From Deltaproteobacteria bacterium (GTDB lineage Bacteria; Myxococcota; Kuafuiibacteriia; Kuafuiibacteriales; Kuafuiibacteriaceae), in assembly GCA_040218735.1 (NCBI GenBank), contig JAVJQW010000042.1, forward strand, positions 256,001 to 320,000: DNA of 64,000 bases. The letters run 5' to 3'. The notes under the pieces were generated by a model, which saw only the letters and a list, made by a program, of their open reading frames with translations, had not been told where the DNA came from and made no database searches. Shown here piece by piece: positions 3,684-16,995 of this stretch. How positions within the stretch are numbered: the first letter of the stretch is position 1; the number at the start of each line of letters is the position of its first letter. The translations under genes and the position numbers were made by a program.

Positions 3684-6600
3684 ATGGCGCGAATCTTCGT
3701 ATCGTACAGCCACCAGGATCGGGCCTGGAAATCGAGAGTGGTGAGTTACATCGACGCCGCGGATCTCGACACGTGGGACGACGATGACATCGAAGTTGGT
3801 GCCGACTGGTTCGGTCGGATTCGCGGAGCAATCGGAGCCGCTGACGCGGCCGTTCTCCTTATCTCTCCCGACTTCCTTCGGTCGAAGTTTGTCCGCGAGC
3901 ACGAGATGCCGCGACTGCTTGGGGAGCGCTCGAATCGCGGTATGAAGATCTTTCCGATCATCGTTCGGCCGTCTCCGCTCGAACCGCACGTCTGGCTGCG
4001 CGAGATGCAGGTTCGACCCCGTGACCTCGAACCCTTAAGCGCCATGACCGACGTCGATGCCGACAAGGTACTTGCCGAGTTTGCGAGTGAGGTACAGAGT
4101 CTCGTCCGTACCAACGTCTCGATGGCCGCGGTCTCCGTCGACGATGTCGAACCCTGGTGGCCAGATGGTGTTCCGCTTCCGCGCCGCCCCTACCCGCTGC
4201 TGGAGCCGTATCGTAGCCCAGAGCTCTACGCCGGCCGGACGCACGAGATCGACGCCTTCGCCTCAGCCGTTCGTGAACCCAAGTTAGTGACTCCGCTGTA
4301 CGGCTCATCCGGCGTTGGAAAGAGCTCATTCATAAACTGTGGTTTGGCACCACGCCTACGCGGTGATGCCGACGACCGCCAGAGTGCGGTTGCGGTGGAG
4401 CGAACGCCGGGGGCGCCGGGGCTATTGAATCGACTCCTCGTTGGCGTGCTGCGAACGCCTCTCGAACCCAAGGTCGGCGATCGCGATGTTGTTCGCTTCC
4501 TGTCAACGGTCGAACGTCTGCGCCAAAAGACTGGATATCCGCCGGTTTTCATTCTCGATCAGTTCGAGGACGCCTTCAAAGGAGACGAGAGTGCTCTTGC
4601 GCGGATTGGCCCCGTCTTGGGGCATACGGCCGTCCAGGGAGATCAACAGTTTCAGTTCGTCTGCCGGTGGGTTCTCTCGTATCGCGAGGAGTTTCATGGA
4701 GCTGTGGAGCAGTGGCTTGCCGACTATCTTCGTCCCGCGCGGATGTCCGAGGTTCTGGGGATCGACAACCTTCCCACGTCGCTTCTCACCCCGGAGTTCT
4801 ACAATCGGACCGTGGCGGGTTTGCGGCCCATGGCGACGCCGCTTCCCCCGCTGGCCGGTGACGCCGCGATGGAGTGGGTCACGGACCGATTCGTCGAGGC
4901 GATTGGCCGGCCCCTCGAGGCGCGACGGGAAGATGGGACCATGGCTTTCCACCTTAAGATTGCCGGCGATGGCCTGCGCAGGCTCGCAGCAGCGTTTGCG
5001 CGTGAGCGTGTCGCTCATCCACGGGCTCCACTTACAACGGAGCTCCAGGTGGTGCTCGATGCGTTGCTGCAAGGTGTGAGTTGGACGGACGACAGGACCG
5101 TGCAGCTGACGTCGGATCTCGACGCGTGCATCGAGGGCGCACTCGAACGTCACCTGGAGCGAAAGCTCCGCGAGGCCTTTCAGGCTGATGATCACCCTCA
5201 ACAAATGCGTACCCGCGGGCTGTTGGTCCTTCTGCGTCTGGCGGACGAGGCGGGCGCGTCCGCGCCGGTTCCGGTCGAGGAACTCGAGAGTTATCTCGGT
5301 AGCGAAGGAGCCGCGGTTCTGGACGGGCTCGCGAGGTCTGATGTGCGGCTGATCATGAAGCAGCGCCACGATCTCACGGCGGTTTATGCCCTTCCGCATG
5401 ACCGGCTCGCGAGTGTTGTGCGTCGGGTCGGCCAAGAGCCGCACACACGTGCGCGGTACGGGCTTGATGATGAGCTTCTTCGGACCCAGGAGCTCGTCGC
5501 GTCGTTGGTGGCTCTGCACCGCAAGGCCCGTGATCTACCTGAAGAAGAGGAGAAGCTACGTCATCAGGCATGTGACCTTAGCGCCGATGTGCGGAAATCC
5601 GTCGAACGCTACGCGCCCTTTCTCGTTGTCGGAGAAGACGCTTGTCTTTGGTGGGCCGACGTGAAGGCGTTCCAGATCCGGGCGCTGGCGCGCGCCCTTC
5701 GGAATCGGAGGATCAAGGTCCTCGTTGGTCTCGTGGTGACCGTCGTAGCTATCTCAGGGATCGCAATCCTCTACGCTTCGGTCTATCACGGCTTTCGCCG
5801 CGCAATCTGGGACGCAAATAGCTACCAAAGCGCGGTGAAAGCACGTGAGAGATTTCGCGTATTGCCGCTTGCTGGGGAACAGGCAGATTCGAGCTTCCGT
5901 GACTATCTTCTTGGCAAGGCTGCCAGGATCGCGTTGACGGGTGACACGCTCGCTGCTGGGCTCGTCCGACAAGAGGCCCTCAAATTGGCCCCTGATGAAG
6001 TCGTAGAACGTCGCGACAATCCGTGGCTCATTCACTTGCGCGAGCGGCCGATCGCTGTACGAATGTCTCCACACGGCGTCTTCGTGGCCATTAGACTTCG
6101 GAGTGGCTTGGAAGTCTGGGAGGTGGCGTCAGAAGGGGTTCGACACTATGCTCACTACCCTTCTTCGCGTTCGATCTCGTTGTTTGCAGTCGATGATGCT
6201 GGCCGCCTAGTGCTGCCGGGATCGAAGCCTAATACGGTACGTTATCGCGAACACGTAGTTCCCATTCCGGAATGGGCTGTCGATATCTGGGTAGACTGGA
6301 GGTCCGAGGATCGGCTGTGGGTGTCAGAGGATCTCGGGCCGAATCTCTGCCTGAACAGGATAGACATCGTAAGCGGTGCGGAGCTTGAACGCCGGCTCGT
6401 GGGTCGGCGTGCAGCCGAGGCTCGCAAGACAATCGAAGAAAAGGTCAAATTGGCTCGTCTTCCATGCCCTGAGCGATCTGGCGTGGAGTTTGTTGACCTC
6501 GGTGATCAGAGTATAGGCGGTGGATCCGAGAGTGTGTCCGATTCCGGAGTGCTTGATTGTGTTGAACGGGGCTGTGTTCATGCATTAATGCCAAGGTGCC

Positions 6601-7745
6601 TGGAGTTTCGTCCAGATTCAGAGTCCGGTACGCATGGTGGAGCATCATTCATTGGTCCTGTAGGTATGACCAGTGATGGCATGGCGGCTCTCCTGAGGGC
6701 TCCGACCTCGTCCGGTTCAGCTAGCTACGAACTGATTGTTGCCGACGTTCGCCGACGGCGAATTCTTCCAGATAGGGCTCTCGGCGTTCGTGTTGACCGG
6801 AACGAAGTAGCATCTTGGGTGGAAAGTCTGAGACTGGATGAGCTTCCTCCGGCGTATCGAGAGTTTCACATCGCACTCGGCGGTGCACTTTTCTCTTTTG
6901 CGGCGCATCGCTTGCATCGTACGGAGATCGCGTCCGCAAAGATCCAGTTCGGCAACGCGGTCGAAGACGCGAACTCCTTAGCCATTCTCGGGCGAAGAGG
7001 TTTCAGCGTGTGCCGAGTTTCCGGTGGATGCCTGCCTAATGTTGAGCTTCCGCGTATGCATAAAATCGTCGTTCCTTTGTCGAACGCCCGCACACTTGCA
7101 CTATCCGCTAGCGATGAAGCGCACCGGTGGTACCTTCTAGACGGGCTCGACGATACGAAAACAGAGCTGACGGCGGTTTCGGACCTCGGGATGTTTGATC
7201 TTCCGTTTGTTCTTGCCCCAGACCGTATACTGACGCGGAACATCTATGACTACAAGATCTCCATCCGCACTGCCGGCGGAAAGGTTCTGTGTAGTCTCCC
7301 GATCGAAGAGCGCGCCAAAGTGGCCCTTGGGCCTCAACGCCGTCACATGCTTGCCTACACGGAGTCTTCGACCCTACTTCACTACGATCTCGATCAGTGC
7401 ACTGGGACCACCATTCGCGTTCCCGGCCCCAAGGAGCCCTTTGGCGAACAAGTCGTAGCGTTTGATCCGACGGAGGGCTGGGCTCTGCTTGTTCTTAGCG
7501 ACAAGCGGCTCTACTTCCGGCTGTCGCTCGGCGAAATTCGTCTACGGGACGTGAGACCCAACGGCTTCAGGAGCCTTGAGAGGGGTAGGCGCGGCGCTCA
7601 AGGCGCGAGTTGGCTCGACCGGATCGACACCTGGGATAGGGTTCCATCCTCGCCGCGCCTAACGTTCGAAGAACGTGTAGGGTATCGACTCGATCCGGAA
7701 ACGCGTACGATAGATCCCATTGGAACCGTTGTCCCGCTTGACTAG
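3684..7745 (+). CDS. TIR domain - STAND NTPase (nSTAND1-like) - TM helix - C-terminal beta-rich sensor domain
   Basis: IFVSYSHQD...LLISPDFLRSKFVREHE (TIR); PYPLLEPY...YAGR, GSSGVGKSS (Walker A), FILDQFED (Walker B), LPHDRLA; TM IKVLVGLVVTVVAISGIAILY. GC is lower than the flanks. Confidence 0.85.
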   Translation: MARIFVSYSHQDRAWKSRVVSYIDAADLDTWDDDDIEVGADWFGRIRGAIGAADAAVLLISPDFLRSKFVREHEMPRLLGERSNRGMKIFPIIVRPSPLEPHVWLREMQVRPRDLEPLSAMTDVDADKVLAEFASEVQSLVRTNVSMAAVSVDDVEPWWPDGVPLPRRPYPLLEPYRSPELYAGRTHEIDAFASAVREPKLVTPLYGSSGVGKSSFINCGLAPRLRGDADDRQSAVAVERTPGAPGLLNRLLVGVLRTPLEPKVGDRDVVRFLSTVERLRQKTGYPPVFILDQFEDAFKGDESALARIGPVLGHTAVQGDQQFQFVCRWVLSYREEFHGAVEQWLADYLRPARMSEVLGIDNLPTSLLTPEFYNRTVAGLRPMATPLPPLAGDAAMEWVTDRFVEAIGRPLEARREDGTMAFHLKIAGDGLRRLAAAFARERVAHPRAPLTTELQVVLDALLQGVSWTDDRTVQLTSDLDACIEGALERHLERKLREAFQADDHPQQMRTRGLLVLLRLADEAGASAPVPVEELESYLGSEGAAVLDGLARSDVRLIMKQRHDLTAVYALPHDRLASVVRRVGQEPHTRARYGLDDELLRTQELVASLVALHRKARDLPEEEEKLRHQACDLSADVRKSVERYAPFLVVGEDACLWWADVKAFQIRALARALRNRRIKVLVGLVVTVVAISGIAILYASVYHGFRRAIWDANSYQSAVKARERFRVLPLAGEQADSSFRDYLLGKAARIALTGDTLAAGLVRQEALKLAPDEVVERRDNPWLIHLRERPIAVRMSPHGVFVAIRLRSGLEVWEVASEGVRHYAHYPSSRSISLFAVDDAGRLVLPGSKPNTVRYREHVVPIPEWAVDIWVDWRSEDRLWVSEDLGPNLCLNRIDIVSGAELERRLVGRRAAEARKTIEEKVKLARLPCPERSGVEFVDLGDQSIGGGSESVSDSGVLDCVERGCVHALMPRCLEFRPDSESGTHGGASFIGPVGMTSDGMAALLRAPTSSGSASYELIVADVRRRRILPDRALGVRVDRNEVASWVESLRLDELPPAYREFHIALGGALFSFAAHRLHRTEIASAKIQFGNAVEDANSLAILGRRGFSVCRVSGGCLPNVELPRMHKIVVPLSNARTLALSASDEAHRWYLLDGLDDTKTELTAVSDLGMFDLPFVLAPDRILTRNIYDYKISIRTAGGKVLCSLPIEERAKVALGPQRRHMLAYTESSTLLHYDLDQCTGTTIRVPGPKEPFGEQVVAFDPTEGWALLVLSDKRLYFRLSLGEIRLRDVRPNGFRSLERGRRGAQGASWLDRIDTWDRVPSSPRLTFEERVGYRLDPETRTIDPIGTVVPLD

Positions 7746-7763
7746 ACCGGTGTGAGACTAACC

Positions 7764-8627
7764 CTACTTCCCCGGGTGCGACTTCGGGAGCGCCTTCAGC
7801 TCGATCCCCTTCTCGTGACATTTCAAACAGTCCGCGTACGAGAAGGCGACCTCGCCCTGGTGGCACTCGACACACGTCGCCATCTTCGGGAGGACCAGCT
7901 TCGCGACCTTGCGGGCCTTCGGGACCTCGAAGTGGCAGCGCAGGCACGGGAGCGACGCGCCGCTGGTCGGGTCGGTCTTGTGGTCGGCGTGCGAGAACTT
8001 CCGGACCAGCGAGCGCGGGTTCTTCTGGTTCTTCGGTCGCTTGTGGCAGCCCGCGCAGTCGTTGATCGACGGCTCGACGTTTTTCTTCGTGTGGCAGTCG
8101 CAGCACTGCGCGTGCGCGGGGAGCTGCACCTTCTCGCCGCCGCGGACGAACGGGTGGCAGAACGTACAGTCCTTGTCGAAGCCGAAGCGCTTCTTCACGC
8201 GCATCTTCGGCGACAGGTGCAGCTTGTGGTCGAACACCGTGCGCAGCGGCGCGCGGTCGCCGGACTGGGGCTTCAGCGCCGACTGCTTCGTGATCGTGAT
8301 CTCCGTGTGGCAGTTCGTGCAGATCACCAGCGGCTTCTGGAAGAACGACGTCGGGTGGCAGCTGATGCACTTGTCGTGCGTCGGGTACGGCATCCGCGTG
8401 TCCTTGCAGATCGGGAACGCGCCCTTGTCCGCCACGTCCTTGTGCGCGTGGCAGTCGTTGCAGGTGTACTTGCGGTCCCCGGCCTTCGTCATCTGGGCCA
8501 GGTGTGTGTCGTGGTCGAACGGCTTCGACAGGTCCGCCGTTTCCTTGGGGAGGCCGGCCTGAGCGACGAGCGTCCCCGCCAGGCAACACGCAGCCGCCAG
8601 CGCCGCCAGCCCGATCCATCGCTTCAT
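7764..8627 (-). CDS. Periplasmic nonaheme cytochrome c (three c7/c3-type triheme repeats)
   Basis: Signal peptide MKRWIGLAALAAA. Nine CxxCH motifs (CNDCH, CISCH, CTNCH, CTFCH, CCDCH, CAGCH, CLRCH, CVECH, CLKCH) and three FxHxxH motifs. Confidence 0.9.
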   Translation of the reverse strand: MKRWIGLAALAAACCLAGTLVAQAGLPKETADLSKPFDHDTHLAQMTKAGDRKYTCNDCHAHKDVADKGAFPICKDTRMPYPTHDKCISCHPTSFFQKPLVICTNCHTEITITKQSALKPQSGDRAPLRTVFDHKLHLSPKMRVKKRFGFDKDCTFCHPFVRGGEKVQLPAHAQCCDCHTKKNVEPSINDCAGCHKRPKNQKNPRSLVRKFSHADHKTDPTSGASLPCLRCHFEVPKARKVAKLVLPKMATCVECHQGEVAFSYADCLKCHEKGIELKALPKSHPGK

Positions 8628-8841
8628 CACGCCCCGAATCTCTATCACAAACCGAAGGTTGGGCCACCGATTCGCCGACCCGCGAACTAGGGACGGACCC
8701 TCATGAGTCGAGCAGTGAAAACGTGCCGTCGAACCGGCGCCCGCAGGTTGAGACGACCGTTCCGCCCCGCCGATTCACTCCCTGCGGTCCGCGCTTGAAC
8801 GAAAGCGTGCTTCGGCCGACGATTCGCCCGACGGACTCCAC

Positions 8842-11184
8842 TTGAGAGACGATGTTTCGATTCTGAAGCGCGTTGCGCTCTTCTCCGGCGTCGACGACGA
8901 AACCCTGGAACGCTTGTACTCCGTCGGGACCCTCCGCGAGATGGCGCCCGGCGACTACGTCGTTCGCCAGGGCGAGTTCGGCGACAGCTTCTTCGTACTG
9001 CTCGACGGCCTCGCCACCGTCGAGGTCGTCGGCGAAGACGGGCGCAGCCGCGAGGTCGCCTCCATCCAACCGAGCCAGTACTTCGGCGAGCTCGCGCTCG
9101 TCGGGCGCGGCGAGCGCAAGGCCTCGGTGCGCGCGCGGACCCAAGCCGCCCTCCTCGAGCTCGGCAAGGGCGAGTTCAACCAGGTCATCAAGCGCAACAA
9201 GCTGGTGAAGGGCCGCATCCAAGAGGCCTACAACAAGAGCGCGCTCTCCACGTTCGTCCGGCAGAGCCGCTACTTCCGCGGGCTGCCTCCGGAGCGCATC
9301 GACGAGATCGTCCTCAACTCGTCCCTCGAGTCGTTCAAGAAGGACGATCTCATCGCACGCGAAGGTGACCCGGCGCAGAAGCTGTTCGTGGTGCGCAGCG
9401 GCTTCGTCCGGATCAGCCGCCTCGTCAGCCGCGGCGCCGACATGGAGAGCGGCGAAGAGATCCTCGCCTACCTCGGACCGGAGGACTTCTTCGGCGACGA
9501 GGAGGTCAGCGTCGGCGCCCCCTACGGCGCGACGGCGATGGCGGTCGAGCCTGTCGAGTGCATGGTCGTGCCGCGCTCGGTGGTGTGGAACATCTACGTC
9601 AAACACCCCGAGGTGTTCTCGTCGTTCCGCCGCTACTCGCTCGCGCGCTCGCAGCAGCAGTCCGGCATCCTGCAGAGCCAGACGTCGATGGGCTTCGTGC
9701 GCGACATGCTCGAAGCCGGCCTCGGCCAGGCGCGCTCCGCGCTGATCATCAACCTCGACACCTGCATCCGCTGCGGCAACTGCGTACAGGCCTGCGACGA
9801 CCTGCACGGCTACTCGCGCCTCGCGCGTCGCGGCAAGAAACTCACGCGTCGCACCGAGGTCGCGTCGACGCGCCACGAATCGCTCTACTTCCCGACGAGC
9901 TGCCTGCAATGCGCCGCGCCCGAGTGCATGGTCGGCTGCCCGACCGGCGCCATCGCGCGCGACGTCGGCGGCGAGGTGTACATCAAGGACACCTGCATCG
10001 GCTGCGGCAGCTGCGCGCGCAACTGCGACTTCGGGAACATCTCGATGGCCAAGGCCAAGGAGGAAGACGGCTGGCTCGTCGGGCTCCTCGGCGGCGGCGC
10101 GAAGGACGAGGCCGACAACAAGAAACACGTCCCGGCCGACCGCGCGCACACGACGATCGCCGAGCCGGCCAAGGCGTCGGGGCTCCCGAAGATCGCGAAG
10201 TCGGATCTGCTCGCGGTGAAGTGCGACGTCTGCTTCGAGCGCGAGTTCGCGGCGTGTGTCTACAACTGTCCGACGGAGTCGATCCTCCGCATCGACCCGC
10301 GGAACTACTTTCACGAGCTCCGTCGCATCGCGCCGAAGCTCGCGGTGAACGAACAGTCGCCGACGGCGGCGAAGACGACGACGTCGCGCCGCAAGAGCCG
10401 CGTCGGTGTCGCCATCCTCGAGATCCTCACCTTCCTGGTCACGATCGCCGGCGGGTACGTGCTGCACGGCTTCCTCGAACCCACGCCGTGGCGCGGCGTC
10501 GGGATGTACGCGGGCGTCGCGGCGGCGGCGATCATGGGCGTGCTCTCGCTGATGGGCCTGCGCAAGCGGATGCGAACGCACGGCATCGGCTCACTCGCCG
10601 CGTGGGTGAAGGTACACGCGGTGCTGGGCGGGTTGCTCTACGGCACGGTGCTGTTCCACGCCGGGTACCAAGCGACGAGTGTCCTCACCGCGACGCTCCT
10701 GACGCTGCTCACCATCTCCTCGCTCGTCGCGATCGGCGGGCAGCTCGCGAGTGTGTTCATCCCGGCGATCCTCGCGCGCTCGGAGGACGAGGCGCTGCTG
10801 CCGGAGGACGTCGGGCCCAAGGTGCGCGAGCTCGCGGCGGCGTCGGAGGAGTTCCTGGAGGGGCTCGACGAACGCACGCGCAAGAAGGTCGAGCAGCACG
10901 CCCAGCGCATGACGCAGGGCGGGTTCGCGTACGTGCTCAAGGGCACCTCGCCGAAGGACCTCGACGGTCTCCTCGAGACCCGCGCGAAGAAGCTCCGCGC
11001 GTTGCCGGACAAGGAGCACGCGGTTGCAATCCGTGTTGCGCACAACCTGGCCGTCGCGCGGATGCACTCGGTGCGGCGCGGGTTGGAGATCCTGCTCACT
11101 TCGTGGGTGCCGCTTCACCTCGTCGCCTCCGCGCTCGCGCTGATGCTGTTGTTCGGTCACATCCTGACCGTGTTCCTGTGGTGA
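8842..11184 (+). CDS. Tandem cNMP-binding domains + NrfC/DmsB-type 4x[4Fe-4S] domain + multi-pass di-heme-b-like membrane domain
   Basis: FGELALVGRGERKASVRA phosphate-binding cassette; second, degenerate cNMP domain; CIRCGNCVQAC, CLQCAAPECMVGCP, CIGCGSCARNC, CDVC..ACVYNCP; two H-x13-H pairs in TM helices. TTG start. Confidence 0.85.
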   Translation: MRDDVSILKRVALFSGVDDETLERLYSVGTLREMAPGDYVVRQGEFGDSFFVLLDGLATVEVVGEDGRSREVASIQPSQYFGELALVGRGERKASVRARTQAALLELGKGEFNQVIKRNKLVKGRIQEAYNKSALSTFVRQSRYFRGLPPERIDEIVLNSSLESFKKDDLIAREGDPAQKLFVVRSGFVRISRLVSRGADMESGEEILAYLGPEDFFGDEEVSVGAPYGATAMAVEPVECMVVPRSVVWNIYVKHPEVFSSFRRYSLARSQQQSGILQSQTSMGFVRDMLEAGLGQARSALIINLDTCIRCGNCVQACDDLHGYSRLARRGKKLTRRTEVASTRHESLYFPTSCLQCAAPECMVGCPTGAIARDVGGEVYIKDTCIGCGSCARNCDFGNISMAKAKEEDGWLVGLLGGGAKDEADNKKHVPADRAHTTIAEPAKASGLPKIAKSDLLAVKCDVCFEREFAACVYNCPTESILRIDPRNYFHELRRIAPKLAVNEQSPTAAKTTTSRRKSRVGVAILEILTFLVTIAGGYVLHGFLEPTPWRGVGMYAGVAAAAIMGVLSLMGLRKRMRTHGIGSLAAWVKVHAVLGGLLYGTVLFHAGYQATSVLTATLLTLLTISSLVAIGGQLASVFIPAILARSEDEALLPEDVGPKVRELAAASEEFLEGLDERTRKKVEQHAQRMTQGGFAYVLKGTSPKDLDGLLETRAKKLRALPDKEHAVAIRVAHNLAVARMHSVRRGLEILLTSWVPLHLVASALALMLLFGHILTVFLW

Positions 11185-11191
11185 CCGCGGC

Positions 11192-12979
11192 GTGTTCGTC
11201 CTGCAGATCATCTCGGGTCCGTACAAGGACCAGGCGGTGCGCTTGGAGCTCGACCGCCCGCTCACGGTCGGCCGCTCGCCGTCGTGCAACATCCGCCTCG
11301 ACGACAAACACATGTCGTCCGCGCACGCCGAGGTCTCGTGGACTTCGGACGGGTTCTCCGTCTTCGACCTGAGCTCCGCGAACGGGACACTCGTCAACGG
11401 CAACAAGGTCACGGGGCGCACGCCGCTACGGCTGGGTGATCACATCCAAACCGGGAGCACGGTGTTCCTGCTCAAGGACGTCGACCTGGAGGTCGAGGGC
11501 GACCTGGAGCTGATCGAAGCGCAACAGAGCGGGGGCGGCATCCTCGCGTTCGACGCCGGCAAGACCGAAGTCGCGATGCGCGGGATGATCCCGGTCGCGT
11601 CGACCGAGGCCTTCGCGGCGGTGAAGAAACGTGCGCCCGAGCCGATGATCCTCGGCGACCGCGCCAACCGCACGCAGATGGCGGCGCACGTCGCCTCGGC
11701 TCGGCTCGACGACGCAGCGATCAGTGACATCGCGACGCTGAAGCAGCGCGTGGAGGCCGGCGGCAACGGCGCGATGGTCATCGTGCAGTGGGACGACCGG
11801 ATGGATCCCTTCTGGTCGACGCCCGTCTCGATCGGTCGCGAGCACTCCAGCGGCGTCGTGCTCGAAGACAACGCGGTCAGCCTCCGCCACGCGGCGATCG
11901 ATCAACGCGACGGGGGCTTCCTCGTCCGCGACGTCGGTTCCTCGAACGGCGTCTACGTGAACCGCAAGCGCATCGTCGAACACCGCGTGATGGACGGCGA
12001 CATCATCTCCATCGGTTCGCACACGATGGTGGTCGTCCTCGGGCCGGGGTGTCTCGGCCTATCGGTACGCACGCCGACGCTCACCGGCGATCTCCCCGCG
12101 CACGACGCACGTGCGATCGGTGTCGTCGACCAGCCGCTCGCCAAGGACGGCAAGAAGAAGAAGCGCAAGAAGGCGTCCGAGCTCGTCTGGTACGCGACGT
12201 CCGATCTGGATCGCGGCGGCTTCCGCGCGCGCGCCGCGCTGGTGGCGCTCCTGTTCGGTCTCGGGCTCACCGGGTGGATGCTCTACGACGGTGACTCGGA
12301 GATCCTCGCCGGGCGTCGACTCGCCGAGCACCACGAGGCGCCGGAGTTCGTCGCGGCCGCCGCGGACAACGGCCTCGACCGCTGCACCGCTTGTCACGTC
12401 GGCGCTGGCCAGGTCTCCACGCTCAAGTGTCTCGACTGCCACCCGCACAACCGGCCCACGCCGGGGCACGTCGGGGCCGACCTCGAGTGCGCCGCGTGCC
12501 ACCTCGAACATCAGGGGCCGAAGTTCCAGGCCTCGGCTTCGGCGGTCTTCTCGTGCGCGGGGTGCCACGAGAACCCGCACGACGCGCTCGCTCGGACGCG
12601 CCCGCAGCTCGTCGCGACCTTCGACATCGACATGCCGGGTGATGTCGACTTCCACCTGACCCACGACGATCAGGACGTCGGCTGCCTCGCGTGCCACGCG
12701 TACGAGACGACCGGTCGCGAGGACGGGATTCGCGACGCGTGCGGACAGTGCCACGCGCCCGACCACCCTGCGGCCGCGGACTGCCAGCTCTGCCACGGCG
12801 GGCACCCCGACCGGGAGACGCCACCGCGTTACGCGGAGGTCCCGCCGAACCCGCCGAAGCGCTTCGCGCTCAAGGGGTTGGTGTGGACGGTGATGCTGTT
12901 GGTGTTGTCGTTCCTCCTCGCCGCGATGATTCCGAGACGTCGCAAGGTCGCGATCGAGACAGCCGAATCCGAGGTGTGA
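11192..12979 (+). CDS. Double-FHA, membrane-anchored heptaheme cytochrome c
   Basis: Two FHA domains (VGRS..SSAHA..SANGT; IGRE..SLRHA..SSNGV), TM helix, seven CxxCH, C-terminal TM followed by RRRK. Confidence 0.85.
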   Translation: MFVLQIISGPYKDQAVRLELDRPLTVGRSPSCNIRLDDKHMSSAHAEVSWTSDGFSVFDLSSANGTLVNGNKVTGRTPLRLGDHIQTGSTVFLLKDVDLEVEGDLELIEAQQSGGGILAFDAGKTEVAMRGMIPVASTEAFAAVKKRAPEPMILGDRANRTQMAAHVASARLDDAAISDIATLKQRVEAGGNGAMVIVQWDDRMDPFWSTPVSIGREHSSGVVLEDNAVSLRHAAIDQRDGGFLVRDVGSSNGVYVNRKRIVEHRVMDGDIISIGSHTMVVVLGPGCLGLSVRTPTLTGDLPAHDARAIGVVDQPLAKDGKKKKRKKASELVWYATSDLDRGGFRARAALVALLFGLGLTGWMLYDGDSEILAGRRLAEHHEAPEFVAAAADNGLDRCTACHVGAGQVSTLKCLDCHPHNRPTPGHVGADLECAACHLEHQGPKFQASASAVFSCAGCHENPHDALARTRPQLVATFDIDMPGDVDFHLTHDDQDVGCLACHAYETTGREDGIRDACGQCHAPDHPAAADCQLCHGGHPDRETPPRYAEVPPNPPKRFALKGLVWTVMLLVLSFLLAAMIPRRRKVAIETAESEV

Positions 12980-13036
12980 CCCGCGTCGGAACTCTCGGCT
13001 TCAGATTTCTGCCGAGCGTCCGATTCCCGTGGTCGG

Positions 13037-14572
13037 ATGACTGTGCCCACCGCCGATCTGACGCGCCTCGATGATCCTCGGGGTGTCGCGCAGATCCTCG
13101 CGAGCCTCGAACAGGATGTGCCCACCTCGGCGGAGAGCGCGCCGGAGCCGCAGCGCCTCTCCATGTATGGCGCGTCGTTCGAGGTGCACGACGCCGGCGA
13201 CGAGCAGGAGCCTCAGGTCTTCTCGAAGAACCACCGGCGGTACCCGCGCGTCCCGCTGCAGGGGAAGGTGAGGTTCGGGCTCGACGACGGGCCGCGCGCG
13301 GGGCTCGTCGACATCAACGCTTCGGGCTTCTCGGCGCGCATTCACCCGACGGCGGCGGAGCGGCTGCCTTCTTACGGCTGGGTGGAGATCGACCTCGGCC
13401 ACGCGCGGGTCTGTGGGTACGCGCGGCTGCGGCGCCAGTACGCTCTGGGGCATCACGTGGTTCTGGGATTCGAGCTCGAGCCCGATCGCGAGCGCTCCGA
13501 GATCATCCGCAGCATCCTCGACCGCGCGTATCCCGCGATCATGCCGCGCGCGGACCTCCCCGCGGCGGCCGTGGCGCGTCTGTTGGACGAGAGCGGTTAC
13601 CTCGAGCTGTGCGAGGACGGGCAGCTCCCGGACGATTGGCTCGGCTTTCGGAGCCCGGAGTCCTTCGACCTCGTGTCGCTCGGGGACGATGCAACTCCGC
13701 TTGCGCACCTGTCGATCACGAAGGCGTTCTCGACGACCTGGGTGGCGCACCAGCTCGCCTCGCGGTCGAAGCACCACGAGAGCTTCTGGAGTTGGTATCA
13801 GCTGCACCGCTACCTCGCGTGTATGCCCGCGATGATGGACGGCGAGAACGCGCACGTCGTCGCCTACTACAACCCGGCGCAGCCGTACCATCAGCGGTAC
13901 CTGCGAGCGTTCGGGAGCTGGATGCAGTCCGAAGCGGACGTGTCGATCGCGCAGTACTCGATGTTCCACCTCGACGCCGCGTCGAACGACGTGGGTGCAG
14001 CGTCGCTGGTGTCCGGGTGGTCGGTCACGCCGCTGACCTCCGCGGCGCGGCCCGACGTGCACCGGGTCGTACTGCAGAACCTCTCCCCCCTCGTCGCGCG
14101 TGCGTTCGACCTCGCGCCGGTGACGCTGGAGAGCGTCAACCTCACGCGCGATCCGTATAGTCTACTCAATAGAAAGCGCCGAGTCTTCCTGCTGTGGCAT
14201 GACGGCCGGGTGCAGGCGGTCGCGCTGTGCGAGCGCGGCGCGAGCTCCGTCTCGATCTTTGGCCTATTCGATCTCGTGCAAGTGCTCCCGACCCGCGATG
14301 GATTCGTGGCTCCGCAGGCGGCACTGGGGATGCTGATGGACGCGGTGCGGGGCTTCTATCGCGCGGAAGGCGCAGAGCGTGCGCTGGTGTTCGCGCCGAT
14401 CGGTTGCATGATCGCCGAGGCCCATCCGGCCCTCGAGTACTCGCACGTCGTCGAGCGCTTCATCATGGGCGGGCGCGCGCTCCGCCACTACGAGAACTTC
14501 GTTCGCTACACCTTCGGCCGGGCGGCGCGCGCGGTGGGTCGCAAGATGAAATGGAAAGCGGACCATCAATGA
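13037..14572 (+). CDS. PilZ domain + GNAT-like acyl/aminoacyl-transferase-fold protein (paralog 1)
   Basis: RRYPRVP (RxxxR) and DINASG (D/N-x-S/N-x-x-G) PilZ motifs. C-terminal ~330 aa alpha/beta region has a GNAT-like strand/helix pattern (fold is inference). Confidence 0.7.
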   Translation: MTVPTADLTRLDDPRGVAQILASLEQDVPTSAESAPEPQRLSMYGASFEVHDAGDEQEPQVFSKNHRRYPRVPLQGKVRFGLDDGPRAGLVDINASGFSARIHPTAAERLPSYGWVEIDLGHARVCGYARLRRQYALGHHVVLGFELEPDRERSEIIRSILDRAYPAIMPRADLPAAAVARLLDESGYLELCEDGQLPDDWLGFRSPESFDLVSLGDDATPLAHLSITKAFSTTWVAHQLASRSKHHESFWSWYQLHRYLACMPAMMDGENAHVVAYYNPAQPYHQRYLRAFGSWMQSEADVSIAQYSMFHLDAASNDVGAASLVSGWSVTPLTSAARPDVHRVVLQNLSPLVARAFDLAPVTLESVNLTRDPYSLLNRKRRVFLLWHDGRVQAVALCERGASSVSIFGLFDLVQVLPTRDGFVAPQAALGMLMDAVRGFYRAEGAERALVFAPIGCMIAEAHPALEYSHVVERFIMGGRALRHYENFVRYTFGRAARAVGRKMKWKADHQ

Positions 14573-14734
14573 GGGGAACCGAAGTGGTCGAGCCCGCGCC
14601 GAGATCCCTCGTGTCTCATTTTGTTTCACACGCGGCGCACCCGTTTTCGATTCATTTCAGGAAAGCGCAAAACCGTGTCAAACTTGTGCGGTGGCCAACC
14701 GCTCGGTCACACAAACAGGTTACAGTCGAGCGCG

Positions 14735-16267: not shown

Positions 16268-16995
16268 TCGAAGCCTACGCCGCGCGGGTCGCGGGGGTGC
16301 GCGAGCGCCTGCGAAGCTGCGCGACGACGAAACGCCTTTGCGATCCCGACCTCGACCCCGACGTGTTCCTGCGTTGGCTGATCGAGTTCAGCTCCTACGG
16401 CGTGCAGAACACCAAGCCGGTCGTCCGCTGGATGACGCAGGCCGGTGAGCACATGATGGCGCAGGGTTTCGAGGAGATCGGCGCCGCGTTCAAGGCCCAC
16501 GGCAAACACGAAGGTGGGCACGACGAGCTGATGGTCGCCGACACGCACCGCCTCGTCGCGCGTTGGAACGCCAAACACGGCGACAGCCTCGACGCCGAGG
16601 CGCTGATCAACCGCCCGCCGACGCCGTCCGTTCAGCTCTACGTCGACCTCCACGAAGACCTCGCCGCCGGCGATCGCCCTTGGCGCAACCTCGCCATCGC
16701 GAGGGAGATCGAAGGCGTCGCAACGACGATCGGCCCGATGGTCCTCGACCAGTGCCGCCGCGTCCTCGGCGAGGAGGGCATGAAGGAAGTCAGCTTCATC
16801 GTCGACCACGTCGAGCTCGACGTCGGCCACACGGCCTCCGACGACAAGATGATCGACCGCCTCCTCACGAAGCGTCCGGAGCTTCTCGACGAGATGGCCG
16901 AGCGCGGCGAGGTCACCCTCGACGCTTACATCGGCTTCCTCGAGGAGTGTTTCATCGAGGCGGACGCCTGGGTCGAACGCCAGCGCGCCGCGTGA
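16264..16995 (+). CDS. Heme-oxygenase-like diiron oxidase (CADD/PqqC/TenA-like iron-containing redox enzyme)
   Basis: HEGGH, IEG and HVELDVGH (H-x3-D-x2-H, as in CADD) metal-ligand motifs in a helical protein. ATGA overlap with the upstream stop. Confidence 0.75.
   Translation: MIEAYAARVAGVRERLRSCATTKRLCDPDLDPDVFLRWLIEFSSYGVQNTKPVVRWMTQAGEHMMAQGFEEIGAAFKAHGKHEGGHDELMVADTHRLVARWNAKHGDSLDAEALINRPPTPSVQLYVDLHEDLAAGDRPWRNLAIAREIEGVATTIGPMVLDQCRRVLGEEGMKEVSFIVDHVELDVGHTASDDKMIDRLLTKRPELLDEMAERGEVTLDAYIGFLEECFIEADAWVERQRAA

What the first reader, a model, noticed from the sequence alone, without database searches (positions are those of the whole stretch)
7764..12979. Candidate cNMP- and phosphothreonine-gated trans-membrane electron conduit
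Seen in sequence: three adjacent redox genes, two of them fused to signalling domains. Gene A (8842-11184) has two cNMP-binding domains (the first with an intact GE..R cassette), a 16-Cys NrfC/DmsB-type ferredoxin and a membrane domain with two H-x13-H pairs. Gene B (11192-12979, 7 nt downstream) has two intact FHA domains, a TM, 7 CxxCH and a second TM. Gene C is a divergent, exported nonaheme cytochrome. Established: paired TM histidines ligate b hemes in ferric-reductase-like domains, FHA binds pThr, and CxxCH hemes are attached in the periplasm. Inference: a continuous cytoplasmic Fe-S to heme b to periplasmic heme c wire. No catalytic (molybdopterin, flavin or NiFe) subunit is encoded nearby, so it is either gated by cAMP/cGMP and Ser/Thr phosphorylation or works in reverse as a redox sensor feeding those pathways. 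I know of no characterised complex with this architecture.
Basis: partly seen in the sequence, partly recalled or inferred. Interest (0 to 1): 0.85.

Follow-up and report, generated by a model that had tools for sequence, protein, structure and literature searches.

The report
Signal-gated electron wire across the membrane
Three neighbouring genes encode what looks like a wire of iron-sulfur clusters and hemes that carries electrons from the cell interior to the periplasm and bears built-in docking sites for cyclic nucleotides and phosphorylated proteins; it belongs to a large, widespread family that nobody has yet characterised.

Summary
Gene A (8842-11184) has two cNMP-binding domains, 16 Cys forming four [4Fe-4S] motifs and a five-helix membrane domain with two H-x13-H pairs. 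Gene B (11192-12979) has two intact FHA domains, a TM helix, 7 CxxCH and a second TM helix. Gene C (7764-8648, minus strand) is an exported nonaheme cytochrome. The four membrane histidines are invariant in 48 aligned domains. The membrane module occurs fused or as a separate gene. A multiheme cytochrome lies within 4 kb in 53 of 54 well-flanked relatives. A complex prediction places B's two TM helices and first heme motif on A's periplasmic face (ipSAE 0.70, best control 0.00). The "wire" reading is therefore well supported.

Two points need correcting. Relatives do carry catalytic flavin modules (NuoEF-like or Fer4-Pyr_redox, 46 of 54 loci), so the family is probably NAD(P)H-linked; only this clade lacks one in cis. 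Two preprints have already noticed similar operons (ptdEFG; a Ferrigenium FHA-nonaheme cluster) and left them uncharacterised. cNMP and FHA domains are input modules, which favours a gated conduit over a redox sensor. Direction, donor and gating remain inferred.

The parts
7764..8648 (-). Gene C: exported nonaheme cytochrome c (294 aa), divergent from A. Likely the periplasmic acceptor or relay.
   Evidence: 9 CxxCH and an N-terminal hydrophobic segment at 10-33. Cytochrome_C7 E 2.4e-14. Orthologs at 59-91% identity lie divergently beside A in G011, G013, G001 and G019 and in L001 and L002. Best solved relative is 6f0k_A, a 'cytochrome c family protein', E 8.6e-6.
8649..8841 (.). Divergent intergenic region between C and A (193 nt); presumed promoter region.
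   Evidence: Gene coordinates. No sigma-70 consensus site was found, which is not informative for this organism.
8842..11184 (+). Gene A (780 aa): cNMP x2, then a four-[4Fe-4S] ferredoxin, then a di-heme-b membrane domain.
   Evidence: AlphaFold2 of the whole protein gives confident domains but flexible linkers (mean pLDDT 78.8, pTM 0.58).
8869..9246 (+). A, cNMP-binding domain 1 (about residues 10-135) with an intact phosphate-binding cassette FGELALVGRGERKAS.
   Evidence: Pfam best stretch 32-119. G82, R92 and A94 invariant and E83 nearly invariant in 25 homologs. The family profile's best solved matches are PKG and PKA regulatory subunits, E 7e-52 to 2e-39.
9289..9627 (+). A, cNMP-binding domain 2 (about residues 150-262); the cassette lacks the phosphate-binding Arg in this clade.
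   Evidence: Second Pfam stretch and alignment columns. In Acidobacteriota homologs both domains keep FGE...R[ST]A.
9739..10311 (+). A, four-cluster ferredoxin domain (about residues 300-490). It has no Tat signal, so it is cytoplasmic.
   Evidence: 16 Cys in four motifs, all invariant in 25 homologs. NCBIfam similarities to AegA, ArrB, DsrO, DmsB, NrfC and HydN are all far under their cut-offs. [quoted passage not shown]
10387..11181 (+). A, membrane domain (about residues 516-780): five TM helices plus a cytoplasmic helical insert. H592/H759 form the inner heme site and H606/H773 the outer heme site.
   Evidence: The four His are the only invariant columns in 48 domains. Two H-x13-H pairs were found in 65 of 65 evaluated loci and in 146 of 149 top family representatives. 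AlphaFold2 mean pLDDT 89.7, pTM 0.81. Sub-threshold DUF4405, Ni_hydr_CYTB and Ferric_reduct hits occur in relatives.
11192..12979 (+). Gene B (595 aa): FHA x2, TM, heptaheme c domain, TM.
   Evidence: The start is confirmed by the N-terminus MFVL, conserved in 30 of 31 orthologs.
11192..11479 (+). B, FHA domain 1 (residues 1-96), cytoplasmic.
   Evidence: Pfam 25-87. G27, H45 and G65 invariant; R28, S42 and N64 nearly invariant.
11774..12046 (+). B, FHA domain 2 (residues 195-285), cytoplasmic.
   Evidence: G215, R216, S230, H233, S250, N252 and G253 invariant. Best solved matches are GarA and OdhI, E about 1e-15.
12218..12289 (+). B, first TM helix (about residues 343-366), preceded by the conserved lysine-rich ASELVWYATSDLDRG segment.
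   Evidence: Hydropathy and conservation. Residues 344-364 lie in the predicted interface with A.
12329..12811 (+). B, periplasmic heptaheme domain (about residues 380-540).
   Evidence: 7 CxxCH plus 7 further invariant His: 381, 426, 440, 463, 488, 491 and 538. The first heme motif (398-406) contacts A's periplasmic face in the predicted complex.
12860..12937 (+). B, second TM helix (about residues 557-582). In relatives it continues into a cytoplasmic Fer4-Pyr_redox flavoprotein; here the protein ends 13 residues later.
   Evidence: Hydropathy. Residues 555-574 lie in the predicted interface. Long forms are seen in L005, L018, L073, L030 and the genome's own paralog.

Best explanation
A, B and C form an inner-membrane electron conduit that bypasses the quinone pool.

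Anatomy:
- A's N-terminal part is cytoplasmic. It has a PKA/PKG-type tandem of cyclic-nucleotide-binding domains, then a chain of four [4Fe-4S] clusters.
- A's C-terminal five-helix domain holds two b hemes stacked across the membrane. H592 and H759 ligate the inner heme; H606 and H773 ligate the outer heme.
- B is anchored by two TM helices that pack against A's TM4 and TM5. Its first c heme sits next to A's outer b heme, and six more c hemes follow.
- C is the exported nonaheme relay or acceptor.

Proposed electron path: from a cytoplasmic low-potential donor to Fe-S x4, then heme b x2, then heme c x7, then C, and on to a periplasmic or extracellular acceptor. In relatives the donor is NAD(P)H, via a NuoEF-like or Fer4-Pyr_redox flavoprotein. 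In this clade the donor is unidentified and encoded elsewhere.

Proposed control: the cNMP domains and B's two cytoplasmic FHA domains are inputs, so cAMP/cGMP and Ser/Thr phosphorylation switch the flow on or off. The likely means is a change in how the donor module or the Fe-S domain docks.

Shown: the domains, cofactor motifs, their conservation, the gene linkage and the fused/split forms.
Predicted: the fold and the A-B interface.
Inferred: cofactor loading, direction of flow, identity of the donor, and gating.
For: Domains and motifs.

Heme-b site:
- The four His are invariant in 25 whole proteins down to 26% identity. They are the only invariant columns in 48 membrane domains.
- Two H-x13-H pairs occur in 65 of 65 evaluated loci and in 146 of 149 top representatives of a family of 5886 clusters at E<=1e-3.
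- By hydropathy and the positive-inside rule the two His-bearing helices run in parallel, in-to-out.
- Relatives give sub-threshold hits to DUF4405 (17 of 48), Ni_hydr_CYTB (10 of 48) and Ferric_reduct (5 of 48). One DUF4405 protein has been shown to bind heme b (PMC11334425, passages read).

One functional unit:
- The Fe-S and membrane modules are fused in Myxococcota and encoded by adjacent genes in Acidobacteriota and Verrucomicrobiia.
- A cytochrome with at least 4 hemes lies within 4 kb in 53 of 54 well-flanked loci.
- In 5 of 5 genomes of the order that have the membrane domain, a B cytochrome homolog follows immediately on the same strand.
- C orthologs are divergent neighbours in 4 of 4 window-type genomes.

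A-B contact: the complex prediction gave ipSAE 0.69, 0.72 and 0.70 (median 0.70), with the best of 3 controls at 0.00. That mark was reached by 116 of 157 solved complexes and 2 of 215 mismatched pairs; these counts hold only roughly here, because my own alignments were used and heme rode along. The runs agree in at least 88% of contacts and the partner's pLDDT is at least 74. The interface comprises A 609-618 (the periplasmic loop after H606), A 756-780 (the helix carrying H759 and H773), B's TM1 and TM2, and B 398-406, the first CxxCH.

Donor side: 46 of 54 loci encode a flavoprotein (25 NuoEF-type, 21 Pyr_redox-type). In Acidobacteriota the cNMP tandem lies between a NuoG-like Fe-S module and the four-cluster domain, that is, in the electron path.

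Regulatory inputs:
- The cNMP tandem is most like PKG/PKA regulatory subunits.
- A canonical cassette is present in the A homolog of 71 of 80 loci.
- FHA recurs in three arrangements: fused to the cytochrome, fused to the A homolog (L039), and stand-alone (L059).
- A Ser/Thr kinase gene lies just upstream of the cluster in the two Polyangiaceae loci I scanned with Pfam (L014, L034), and kinase-like ORFs occur in 17 of 54 well-flanked loci.
- The genome has 7 class III cyclase genes.
Against: - No cofactor, cNMP or pThr binding has been measured for any member.
- In this clade no electron donor is encoded in cis: window, L001 and L002, 3 of 3. The first step of the wire is therefore unknown here.
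- The window's own membrane domain gets no Pfam hit better than E 0.22. A profile search of solved chains found nothing significant; the best relevant hit, 5o0t_A, has E 0.62.
- Foldseek found no match at E<=0.001.
- The all-against-representatives structure search gave only Z<=8.8, within the noise range for helical bundles.
- AlphaFold2 does not fix the relative placement of the cNMP, Fe-S and membrane domains (pTM 0.58).
- No model coordinates were available, so no cofactor distances could be measured.
- The direction of flow rests on thermodynamic reasoning and on the NAD(P)H modules of relatives.
- A quinone site in the membrane domain cannot be excluded.
- The second cNMP domain lacks the phosphate-binding Arg in this clade.
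- The distribution is patchy, 7 of 20 genomes of the order, so this is an accessory function.
Confidence: 0.6

Rival explanations
1. The same complex runs inward. Periplasmic cytochromes, reduced by an external donor such as Fe(II), H2 or formate, deliver electrons through heme b to the cytoplasmic Fe-S chain. This is how the Tmc, Hmc and DsrMKJOP complexes of sulfate reducers are understood to work (recalled). It is also what the Ferrigenium preprint leans towards for its look-alike cluster.
For: The anatomy is symmetric and would allow either direction. A look-alike cluster (an FHA-bearing nonaheme cytochrome, a 5-TM protein and a [4Fe-4S] protein) sits in an Fe(II) oxidiser and is expressed under all tested conditions (bioRxiv 10.64898/2026.01.22.701106, section 6.3.2 read). 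NuoEF-type modules work reversibly in other enzymes (recalled).
Against: Moving an electron inward works against the membrane potential. Reducing [4Fe-4S] clusters or NAD+ from bis-His c hemes is steeply uphill (established bioenergetics, not computed here). No cytoplasmic acceptor enzyme is encoded in cis in this clade. The hosts carrying the family are mostly aerobic heterotrophs, Myxococcota and Acidobacteriota.
Confidence: 0.13
2. The membrane domain is a quinol or quinone site, as in NarI, FdnI, CybB or Geobacter CbcL. The unit would then be a quinol:cytochrome c oxidoreductase, or a donor:quinone reductase, with the Fe-S domain as a second entry rather than part of a quinone-independent through-wire.
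For: There are weak Ni_hydr_CYTB hits in 10 of 48 relatives. The model superposes on E. coli CybB (5oc0_A) at Z 8.0, rmsd 3.5 A, 128 residues aligned. Di-heme b subunits that dock four-cluster proteins (NarHI, FdnHI) are quinone-reactive (recalled).
Against: Apart from the four His, no column is invariant in the membrane domain. The Fe-S domain and a multiheme cytochrome flank the membrane module in nearly every locus, which gives both ends of a through-path. The structural matches are within noise.
Confidence: 0.15
3. It is a redox sensor. The redox state of the periplasmic hemes is relayed to the cytoplasmic cNMP and FHA domains, which then signal onward.
For: No catalytic partner is encoded in cis in this clade. 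Signalling domains are fused to both membrane proteins.
Against: cNMP-binding and FHA domains read a ligand or a phosphopeptide; they emit nothing. No output domain is fused or linked. Four Fe-S clusters, two b hemes and 16 c hemes are far more than a sensor needs. 46 of 54 relatives couple the same core to NAD(P)H-type flavoproteins.
Confidence: 0.05
4. The three genes are unrelated neighbours that do not work together.
For: None beyond the absence of experiments.
Against: The gene order is conserved across genera. The modules occur fused or split. The interface is predicted with controls at zero.
Confidence: 0.02

Closest known systems
ptdEFG part of the ptdABCDEFG operon (bioRxiv 10.1101/2023.11.21.568154; the section on the multiheme complex and the Discussion passages read)
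   Same: As described there: PtdE is a cyclic-nucleotide-binding protein with 4Fe-4S clusters, PtdF a transmembrane ferric-reductase-like protein, PtdG a periplasmic decaheme cytochrome and PtdC a FAD/NAD(P) oxidoreductase. That is the same module order as the split Acidobacteriota forms found here. The authors state that the function is completely unknown.
   Different: Here the Fe-S and membrane parts are one polypeptide. The cytochrome has 7 hemes and carries two FHA domains. No porin, pentaheme or flavoprotein gene is adjacent. The preprint counts two clusters where I count four. Its supplementary tables are closed, so sequence-level homology could not be tested.
Ferrigenium straubiae nonaheme cytochrome cluster (bioRxiv 10.64898/2026.01.22.701106, section 6.3.2 read)
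   Same: A membrane-anchored multiheme cytochrome with a cytosolic FHA domain, next to a 5-TM protein with no known motif and a [4Fe-4S] protein. The authors note that FHA had not been reported with multiheme cytochromes.
   Different: That cytochrome has nine hemes and one TM helix. No cNMP domain is mentioned. The authors did not recognise the TM protein as a heme-b carrier, and they favour inward flow to quinone. No sequences were available for comparison.
Four-cluster protein plus di-heme b anchor of the molybdoenzyme family (NarH-NarI, FdnH-FdnI); recalled knowledge
   Same: A ferredoxin with 16 Cys and four clusters docks on a membrane subunit that holds two bis-His b hemes stacked across the bilayer. 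In Nar the Fe-S protein is cytoplasmic, as it is here.
   Different: There is no molybdopterin subunit. The membrane fold is not NarI or FdnI by sequence (no Pfam or NCBIfam hit). The partner on the far side is a multiheme cytochrome c rather than quinol. The cNMP domains are fused.
TmcABCD, HmcABCDEF and DsrMKJOP transmembrane redox complexes of sulfate reducers; recalled knowledge
   Same: Periplasmic multiheme cytochrome c, membrane heme b and cytoplasmic Fe-S protein act together as one transmembrane electron path.
   Different: Those use HdrD/CCG-type Fe-S proteins and NarI-like or NrfD-like membrane subunits, and they run inward. Only weak sub-cut-off NCBIfam similarities were seen here: DsrO 51 bits against a cut-off of 200, and HmcA 27.9 against 400. 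They carry no signalling domains.
Ferric-reductase / NOX / MsrQ / DUF4405 / cytochrome b561 (CybB) group of di-heme membrane proteins
   Same: Two helices each carry two His about 13 residues apart and hold two b hemes across the membrane. They are fed from the cytoplasmic side and deliver outside. Relatives give sub-threshold hits to these Pfam families, and an Atlas neighbour is auto-named ferric-reductase-like. One DUF4405 protein was shown to bind heme b (PMC11334425).
   Different: There are five helices rather than six, with a roughly 100-residue cytoplasmic helical insert. The donor is an Fe-S chain instead of a flavin domain. The window protein itself does not reach any Pfam threshold, and the fold searches were inconclusive.
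PKA/PKG regulatory-subunit tandem cNMP domains, and the GarA/OdhI FHA regulators
   Same: These are the best solved sequence matches for the tandem cNMP domains (E 7e-52 to 2e-39) and for FHA domain 2 (about 1e-15). The ligand-contact residues are conserved.
   Different: Here they are fused to respiratory-type redox modules rather than regulating a kinase or a dehydrogenase.

Membership tests
cNMP_binding (PF00027) | Profile match above the curated cut-off | tested here: met
   135.7 bits against a cut-off of 27.5, in two stretches.
cNMP_binding (PF00027) | Phosphate-binding cassette G-E...R-[ST/x]-A | tested here: met
   Domain 1: FGELALVGRGERKAS, with G82, R92 and A94 invariant and E83 nearly so. 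Domain 2 lacks the Arg in this clade.
cNMP_binding (PF00027) | Actual binding of cAMP or cGMP | not testable with these tools
   Needs ITC or a fluorescence assay.
FHA (PF00498) | Profile match, and the pThr pocket residues (G-R, S-x-x-H, N-G) | tested here: met
   120.6 bits against a cut-off of 20.7, in two stretches. The pocket residues are invariant or nearly so in 31 orthologs.
Four-cluster ferredoxin of the DmsB/NrfC/NarH/HycB type | Four Cys groups (16 Cys) in the family's order | tested here: met
   Motifs at 308-318, 354-366, 385-395 and 461-476; all 16 Cys are invariant. Fer4_11 scores 26.7 bits against a cut-off of 26.2.
Named equivalogs ArrB, DsrO, NrfC, DmsB, HydN, AegA (NCBIfam) | Score at or above the curated equivalog cut-off | tested here: not met
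   The best are AegA at 53.2 bits against 1003, ArrB at 52 against 450 and DsrO at 51 against 200.
Periplasmic NrfC/DmsB/HybA-type subunits | N-terminal Tat signal | tested here: not met
   The N-terminus is a cNMP domain with no signal sequence. The Fe-S domain is therefore cytoplasmic.
Multiheme cytochrome c | Several CxxCH motifs in an exported or membrane-anchored protein | tested here: met
   B has 7 and C has 9. All of B's motifs and 7 further His are invariant. Covalent attachment of heme is not testable here.
Ferric_reduct (PF01794), DUF4405 (PF14358), Ni_hydr_CYTB (PF01292) | Profile match above the gathering score | tested here: not met
   The window's domain gives no hit. Relatives give sub-threshold hits in 5, 17 and 10 of 48 respectively.
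Ferric_reduct (PF01794), DUF4405 (PF14358), Ni_hydr_CYTB (PF01292) | Two pairs of heme-ligating His on two transmembrane helices | tested here: met
   H592/H606 and H759/H773 are invariant.
Ferric_reduct (PF01794), DUF4405 (PF14358), Ni_hydr_CYTB (PF01292) | Shared fold with a solved member | tested here: inconclusive
   Foldseek found nothing at E<=0.001. VIA-align gave CybB 5oc0_A at Z 8.0 and the designed di-heme bundle 7ah0_A at Z 8.7, both within the noise range for helical bundles.
NADPH oxidase (NOX) | FAD/NADPH dehydrogenase domain fused to the di-heme membrane domain | tested here: not met
   No flavin domain is present in A, B or C. Relatives carry separate or B-fused Pyr_redox modules.
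NapC/NirT/CymA quinol dehydrogenases | Tetraheme domain on a single N-terminal TM helix; family profile match | tested here: not met
   B has 7 hemes, two TM helices and N-terminal FHA domains. No family hit was found apart from NrfH at E 0.013 in the solved-structure search.
ptdEFG module (preprint) | Sequence homology to PtdE, PtdF and PtdG | not testable with these tools
   Only the verbal domain description could be compared, and it matches. The supplementary tables are closed.

The most novel reading that the evidence does not exclude
This would be the first respiratory-type electron conduit that is switched directly by second messengers. It would be a quinone-independent valve that lets NAD(P)H- or ferredoxin-derived electrons leave the cytoplasm for periplasmic multiheme cytochromes only under two conditions: cAMP/cGMP is bound to the tandem cNMP domains that sit in (or cap) the Fe-S path, and a Ser/Thr kinase has phosphorylated a partner read by the FHA domains. 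Signalling would thus control transmembrane electron flow by conformational gating of cofactor distances, across thousands of bacterial lineages.
Probability: 0.3. Interest if true: 0.88.

Novelty: new variant of a known kind. Interest (0 to 1): 0.7.

Why it matters
Transmembrane electron export is normally thought to pass through the quinone pool and to be controlled at the level of transcription. This family joins cytoplasmic Fe-S clusters, membrane b hemes and periplasmic c hemes in one unit. It carries cyclic-nucleotide and phospho-threonine readers on the redox proteins themselves.

The membrane module alone has 5886 cluster representatives at E<=1e-3 and no Pfam model. It is found in Myxococcota, Acidobacteriota, Verrucomicrobiia and, by the preprints' description, in marine Proteobacteria, Nitrospirales and iron oxidisers.

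If the gating is real, it gives a directly testable case of post-translational control of respiration or extracellular electron transfer. It would also be a compact, switchable wire for bioelectrochemical engineering. Cultured carriers exist for genetics: Chondromyces apiculatus DSM 436, Polyangium sp. 6x1 and Granulicella aggregans M8UP14.

Tried and rejected
- Sequence route to a known family for the membrane domain. Pfam on the window protein found nothing. A profile search against solved chains gave only coiled-coil noise, with 5o0t_A at E 0.62.
- Fold route. Foldseek against the PDB gave no match at E<=0.001; the best was YetJ at E 0.23. The wide VIA-align search gave Z<=8.8, which is the noise level for helical bundles. 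I therefore do not claim a fold family.
- Full-length AlphaFold2 of A does not fix the inter-domain geometry (pTM 0.58). Coordinates are not exposed, so no cofactor distances could be measured.
- Search for a cis-encoded donor, cyclase or kinase in the window: none near the genes. The promoter and terminator scans were uninformative: 0 promoters, and terminator count equal to that of shuffles.
- Transcription. One biofloc metatranscriptome run holds short contigs (151-292 nt, 1-12 mismatches) on C, A and B. DNA carry-over cannot be excluded and the contigs come from a relative, so this is no more than a weak hint. Parts of the stretch without cover mean nothing.
- Habitat. DNA runs holding the stretch come from aquaculture/biofloc, sponge and seawater metagenomes. 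Only four runs were laid, so this is a lead, not a conclusion.
- The NuoG_N column of my neighbourhood table was discarded, because the exemplar contained generic Fer4 motifs and hit A itself.
- L003 and L004 (the short cNMP-Fe-S form, sister to the window clade) show no membrane partner within their short contigs. These are contig-end cases, not evidence of absence.
- Rejected: that A is a CRP/FNR-type transcription factor. That was the JGI auto-name of relatives, but A has no HTH domain and carries Fe-S and membrane domains instead.

Full report
**1. The observation**

Their third-position GC is 0.90-0.95, as expected of real genes in this 68% GC window.

Gene A (8842-11184, 780 aa):
- It matches cNMP_binding twice (E 5.3e-40) and a range of 4Fe-4S families.
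- Sixteen of its 17 Cys form four cluster motifs at 308-318, 354-366, 385-395 and 461-476.
- Its C-terminal third is hydrophobic and carries H592/H606 and H759/H773, each pair spaced by 13 residues.

Gene B (11192-12979, 595 aa):
- It starts 7 nt after A's stop.
- It has two FHA domains (E 3.7e-35), hydrophobic segments at 346-364 and 557-582, and seven CxxCH between them.

Gene C (7764-8648, minus strand, 294 aa):
- It has an N-terminal signal-like segment and nine CxxCH.

None of the window's ORFs that passed my GC3 filter and were scanned with Pfam encodes a molybdopterin, flavin or NiFe enzyme or a nucleotide cyclase. The only Ser/Thr kinase lies 37 kb away.

**2. Are the cofactor and ligand sites conserved?**

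A search of 5.8 billion proteins returned 377 relatives of A at E<=1e-3 among the 8000 candidates scored. I aligned 25 of them, chosen to span 84% to 26% identity. In that alignment all 16 cluster Cys and H592, H606, H759 and H773 are invariant. So are G82, R92 and A94 of the first cNMP cassette, and E83 is nearly so.

For the membrane domain alone I aligned 48 examples, fused or free-standing. The four His are the only invariant columns.

Two H-x13-H pairs at matching positions were present in 65 of 65 loci where I could delimit the domain. Fifteen of the 80 loci were not evaluated: either the contig ended, my Cys-motif anchor failed, or BLAST missed the partner. L038 and L074 were later seen to have the partner.

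A profile of the 48 domains finds 5886 cluster representatives at E<=1e-3 among 1.84 billion proteins (3943 at <=1e-10, 1008 at <=1e-30). Of the 149 best other than A itself, 146 have at least two H-x13-H pairs, and 98 are free-standing proteins of 360 aa or fewer.

In B, 31 orthologs keep all seven CxxCH, seven further His, and the pThr-pocket residues of both FHA domains.

**3. What the membrane domain is**

Pfam has no model for it. The window's copy gives nothing. Relatives give sub-threshold hits to DUF4405 (17 of 48), Ni_hydr_CYTB (10 of 48) and Ferric_reduct (5 of 48). One DUF4405 protein has been purified and shown to bind heme b (PMC11334425, passages read).

AlphaFold2 gives a confident model (mean pLDDT 89.7, pTM 0.81). 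It has five long helices plus a cytoplasmic helical insert of about 65 residues. The His pairs sit on helix 3 and on the last helix.

Hydropathy and the RKRMR loop after helix 2 put both His-bearing helices in the in-to-out orientation. H592 and H759 would then face each other near the cytoplasm, and H606 and H773 near the periplasm. This is my inference.

Fold searches did not settle a family. Foldseek found nothing at E<=0.001. The wide VIA-align search peaked at Z 8.8. A designed two-heme four-helix bundle (7ah0_A: Z 8.7, rmsd 2.4 A, 100 residues) and E. coli CybB (5oc0_A: Z 8.0, rmsd 3.5 A, 128 residues) are among the top rows, but that Z range is noise for helical bundles. I therefore describe it as working like a di-heme b four-helix-bundle cytochrome, without filing it in a named family.

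**4. Do the genes belong together?**

They come from:
- Myxococcota: Kofleriaceae, Polyangiaceae including Chondromyces apiculatus DSM 436, Nannocystaceae and Haliangiales;
- Acidobacteriota, including Granulicella aggregans;
- one Verrucomicrobiia MAG.

In Myxococcota the Fe-S and membrane modules are one protein. In Acidobacteriota and Verrucomicrobiia they are adjacent genes.

I then restricted the count to the 54 loci with at least 3 kb upstream and 5 kb downstream; 26 were dropped for short flanks. Of these 54:
- 53 have a cytochrome with at least 4 hemes within 4 kb;
- 12 have FHA;
- 17 have a protein-kinase hit.

In the window's own order the membrane domain occurs in 7 of 20 genomes (6 of 12 genera), so it is accessory. 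In all 5 genomes tested, a B cytochrome-domain homolog follows directly on the same strand. In the 4 window-type genomes a C ortholog (59-91% identity) lies divergently upstream. Some of these genomes are probably the same as L001 and L002, so I do not add the counts together.

B's close orthologs form 37 clusters at 44% identity or more. For at least 18 of them the longest-contig length equals that of an A ortholog, which I take to mean the same contig.

**5. Predicted A-B contact**

The result supports binding:
- ipSAE was 0.69, 0.72 and 0.70 (median 0.70). The best of 3 controls was 0.00.
- The mark was reached by 116 of 157 solved complexes and 2 of 215 mismatched pairs. These counts hold only roughly here, because my own alignments were used and a small molecule rode along.
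- The runs agree in at least 88% of contacts, and the partner's pLDDT is at least 74.
- The confident interface comprises A 609-618 (the periplasmic loop right after H606), A 756-780 (the helix with H759 and H773), both TM helices of B (344-364 and 555-574), and B 398-406, its first heme motif.

This is the geometry a heme b to heme c hand-over needs. It is the model's own confidence, not a measurement. I know of no solved complex of this kind that it could have memorised.

**6.

Pfam scans of neighbours in relatives changed the picture.

- Acidobacteriota (L022, L076, L039). A fused NuoE+NuoF-like protein (2Fe-2S_thioredx, Complex1_51K, NADH_4Fe-4S) precedes the A homolog. The A homolog itself begins with a NuoG-like Fe-S module, continues with two or three cNMP domains, and ends with the four-cluster domain. 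A 300-aa membrane protein and a decaheme cytochrome follow.
- Kofleriaceae-type loci (L005, L018), Bryobacteraceae (L073) and Nannocystaceae (L030). The B homolog continues after its second TM helix into a cytoplasmic Fer4 plus Pyr_redox_3 flavoprotein.
- Polyangiaceae (L014, L034). A separate tetraheme-Fer4-Pyr_redox protein is present, and a Ser/Thr kinase gene lies just upstream.

Overall, 46 of the 54 well-flanked loci carry such a flavoprotein: 25 NuoEF-type and 21 Pyr_redox-type.

A maximum-likelihood tree of the Fe-S core had 75 rows. Six loci were left out because my anchor motif failed: L029, L058, L061, L064, L073 and L080. The tree separates four groups:
- an Acidobacteriota NuoEF clade (35 rows);
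- a Kofleriaceae-type FHA+Pyr clade (15 rows);
- a Polyangiaceae/Nannocystaceae Pyr clade (18 rows);
- a group holding the window, L001, L002, L003, L004, L028 and L059, with no flavoprotein in cis. L028 ends inside its B homolog, so it is undecided.

The window's own 11.6-Mb genome carries two further modules:
- On contig C60: a 726-aa cNMP-Fer4-membrane protein with two H-x13-H pairs, followed by an FHA-heptaheme-Fer4-Pyr_redox protein.
- On contig C29: a 252-aa di-His-pair membrane protein, a 467-aa Fer4-Pyr_redox protein and a heptaheme cytochrome.

So the family is tied to NAD(P)H-type dehydrogenase modules. This clade has either lost the cis copy or uses a donor encoded elsewhere.

**7. 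Regulation**

The family profile's best solved matches for the N-terminal tandem are PKG and PKA regulatory subunits (E 7e-52 to 2e-39). CRP-type regulators appear only around 1e-20. A canonical FGE...R[ST]A cassette is found in the A homolog of 71 of 80 loci, and twice per protein in 43 of them (several misses are truncated ORFs). FHA domain 2 is closest to GarA and OdhI.

FHA is attached to the system in three ways: fused to the cytochrome, fused to the N-terminus of the A homolog (L039), and stand-alone (L059). That argues for a functional link rather than a chance fusion.

The genome has seven class III cyclase genes, none of them linked.

cNMP and FHA domains both receive signals, and no output domain is present. 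I therefore read them as gates on the conduit, not as the outputs of a sensor. In the Acidobacteriota forms the cNMP tandem sits between two Fe-S modules. This suggests a mechanism: ligand-driven movement that opens or closes the gap in the electron path. That is inference.

**8. Direction**

Outward flow is my preferred reading, for these reasons:
- The cytoplasmic partner modules are NAD(P)H dehydrogenase-like.
- Electron export runs with the membrane potential.
- Bis-His c hemes are generally higher in potential than [4Fe-4S] clusters (established knowledge, not computed here).
- The hosts are mostly aerobic heterotrophs.

Inward flow, a quinone-linked function and a sensor role are kept as rivals.

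**9. What is known**

Six full-text searches found no characterised complex of this make-up. Two preprints describe look-alikes:
- The ptdABCDEFG operon of marine bacteria. PtdE is a cNMP-binding 4Fe-4S protein, PtdF a ferric-reductase-like membrane protein, PtdG a decaheme cytochrome and PtdC a FAD/NAD(P) oxidoreductase. Its function is called "completely unknown" (10.1101/2023.11.21.568154, one section and passages read).
- A Ferrigenium straubiae cluster: an FHA-bearing nonaheme cytochrome, a 5-TM protein without known motifs and a [4Fe-4S] protein, expressed in all conditions tested (10.64898/2026.01.22.701106, section 6.3.2 read).

A Gallionellaceae pangenome table also lists a 10-heme "Forkhead-associated protein" cluster in 27 genomes, without comment (PMC9900912, passage read).

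Supplements of the two bioRxiv preprints are closed, so homology to A and B rests on their verbal descriptions.

The closest characterised systems in logic are NarHI/FdnHI, Tmc/Hmc/Dsr and NOX/MsrQ (recalled). None shares the membrane family, the partner set or the signalling domains.

**10. Weak or negative results**

- NCBIfam gives no equivalog. The nearest is FhaB/FipA, at 123.7 bits against a cut-off of 125, and that match is on the FHA domains only.
- Full-length A folds into confident domains joined by low-confidence linkers (pTM 0.58).
- An RNA library from a biofloc community contains short contigs on C, A and B from a close relative. That does not prove transcription.

**Verdict**

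This is a real, conserved and uncharacterised transmembrane Fe-S / heme b / heme c module with built-in cNMP and pThr readers. It has been noticed in print but not understood. The wire is well supported. The donor, the direction of flow and the gating remain to be tested.

Noticed in passing
window 3684-7745 (+): A 1353-aa TIR + nSTAND1 NTPase gene with markedly lower GC: the 4001-8000 block is 0.60 against about 0.68 elsewhere. It is wedged right beside gene C. The TIR part hits the PADLOC ThsB/TIR models. It is probably a horizontally acquired defence gene and not part of the conduit. No relative was found in the 80 loci.
   Followed up: partly
window 13037-14572 (+) and 14621-16267 (+): Two tandem paralogs (511 and 548 aa) directly downstream of B on the same strand, with no Pfam family. 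The first gives a weak PilZ hit (E 0.037) at residues 66-159. They were found only in the closest relative, L001. A metagenome contig (run X3) joins 12982 to 14925 with 310 other letters between, so a relative carries one copy or a replaced stretch.
   Followed up: partly
window 16252-16995 (+): A 247-aa 'iron-containing redox enzyme' (Haem_oxygenas_2, 29.0 bits against a cut-off of 28.9). Its start overlaps the end of the second paralog, so it is possibly co-transcribed with A and B in this genome.
   Followed up: no
L101 (G000:C60:96000-114000) 7680-12967: A second, paralogous module in the same genome. It consists of a cNMP-Fer4-membrane protein (726 aa, H-x13-H at 601 and 700), followed by an FHA x2 / heptaheme / Fer4 / Pyr_redox protein. 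An ECF sigma factor and a heptaheme cytochrome lie upstream.
   Followed up: partly
L081 (G000:C29:152561-156682): A third module without a cNMP domain: a 252-aa membrane protein with two H-x13-H pairs, a 467-aa Fer4-Pyr_redox protein and a 353-aa heptaheme cytochrome. This 467-aa flavoprotein is a candidate trans-acting donor for the window's system.
   Followed up: no
G000:C9:740284-741792 (-): A class III nucleotidyl cyclase hit and an FHA hit both report a 660-aa open frame on the same strand about 0.8 kb apart, so they are probably one ORF. That suggests an FHA-cyclase fusion that would link pThr reading to cNMP synthesis in this organism.
   Followed up: no
representatives P0183-P0275: Many members of the membrane-domain family are 470-880 aa long because a large insertion sits between the two His-bearing halves, in the cytoplasmic insert. 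The inserted domains were not examined.
   Followed up: no
G013:C2:743830-744680: In one relative the membrane domain of the A homolog is matched in two overlapping pieces in different open frames (622 and 318 aa). This is a frameshift, a sequencing error or a natural split.
   Followed up: no
window 38896-39654 (-): A classical CRP-type regulator (cNMP_binding + HTH_Crp_2) lies 26 kb from the conduit. There is no evidence of a link.
   Followed up: no
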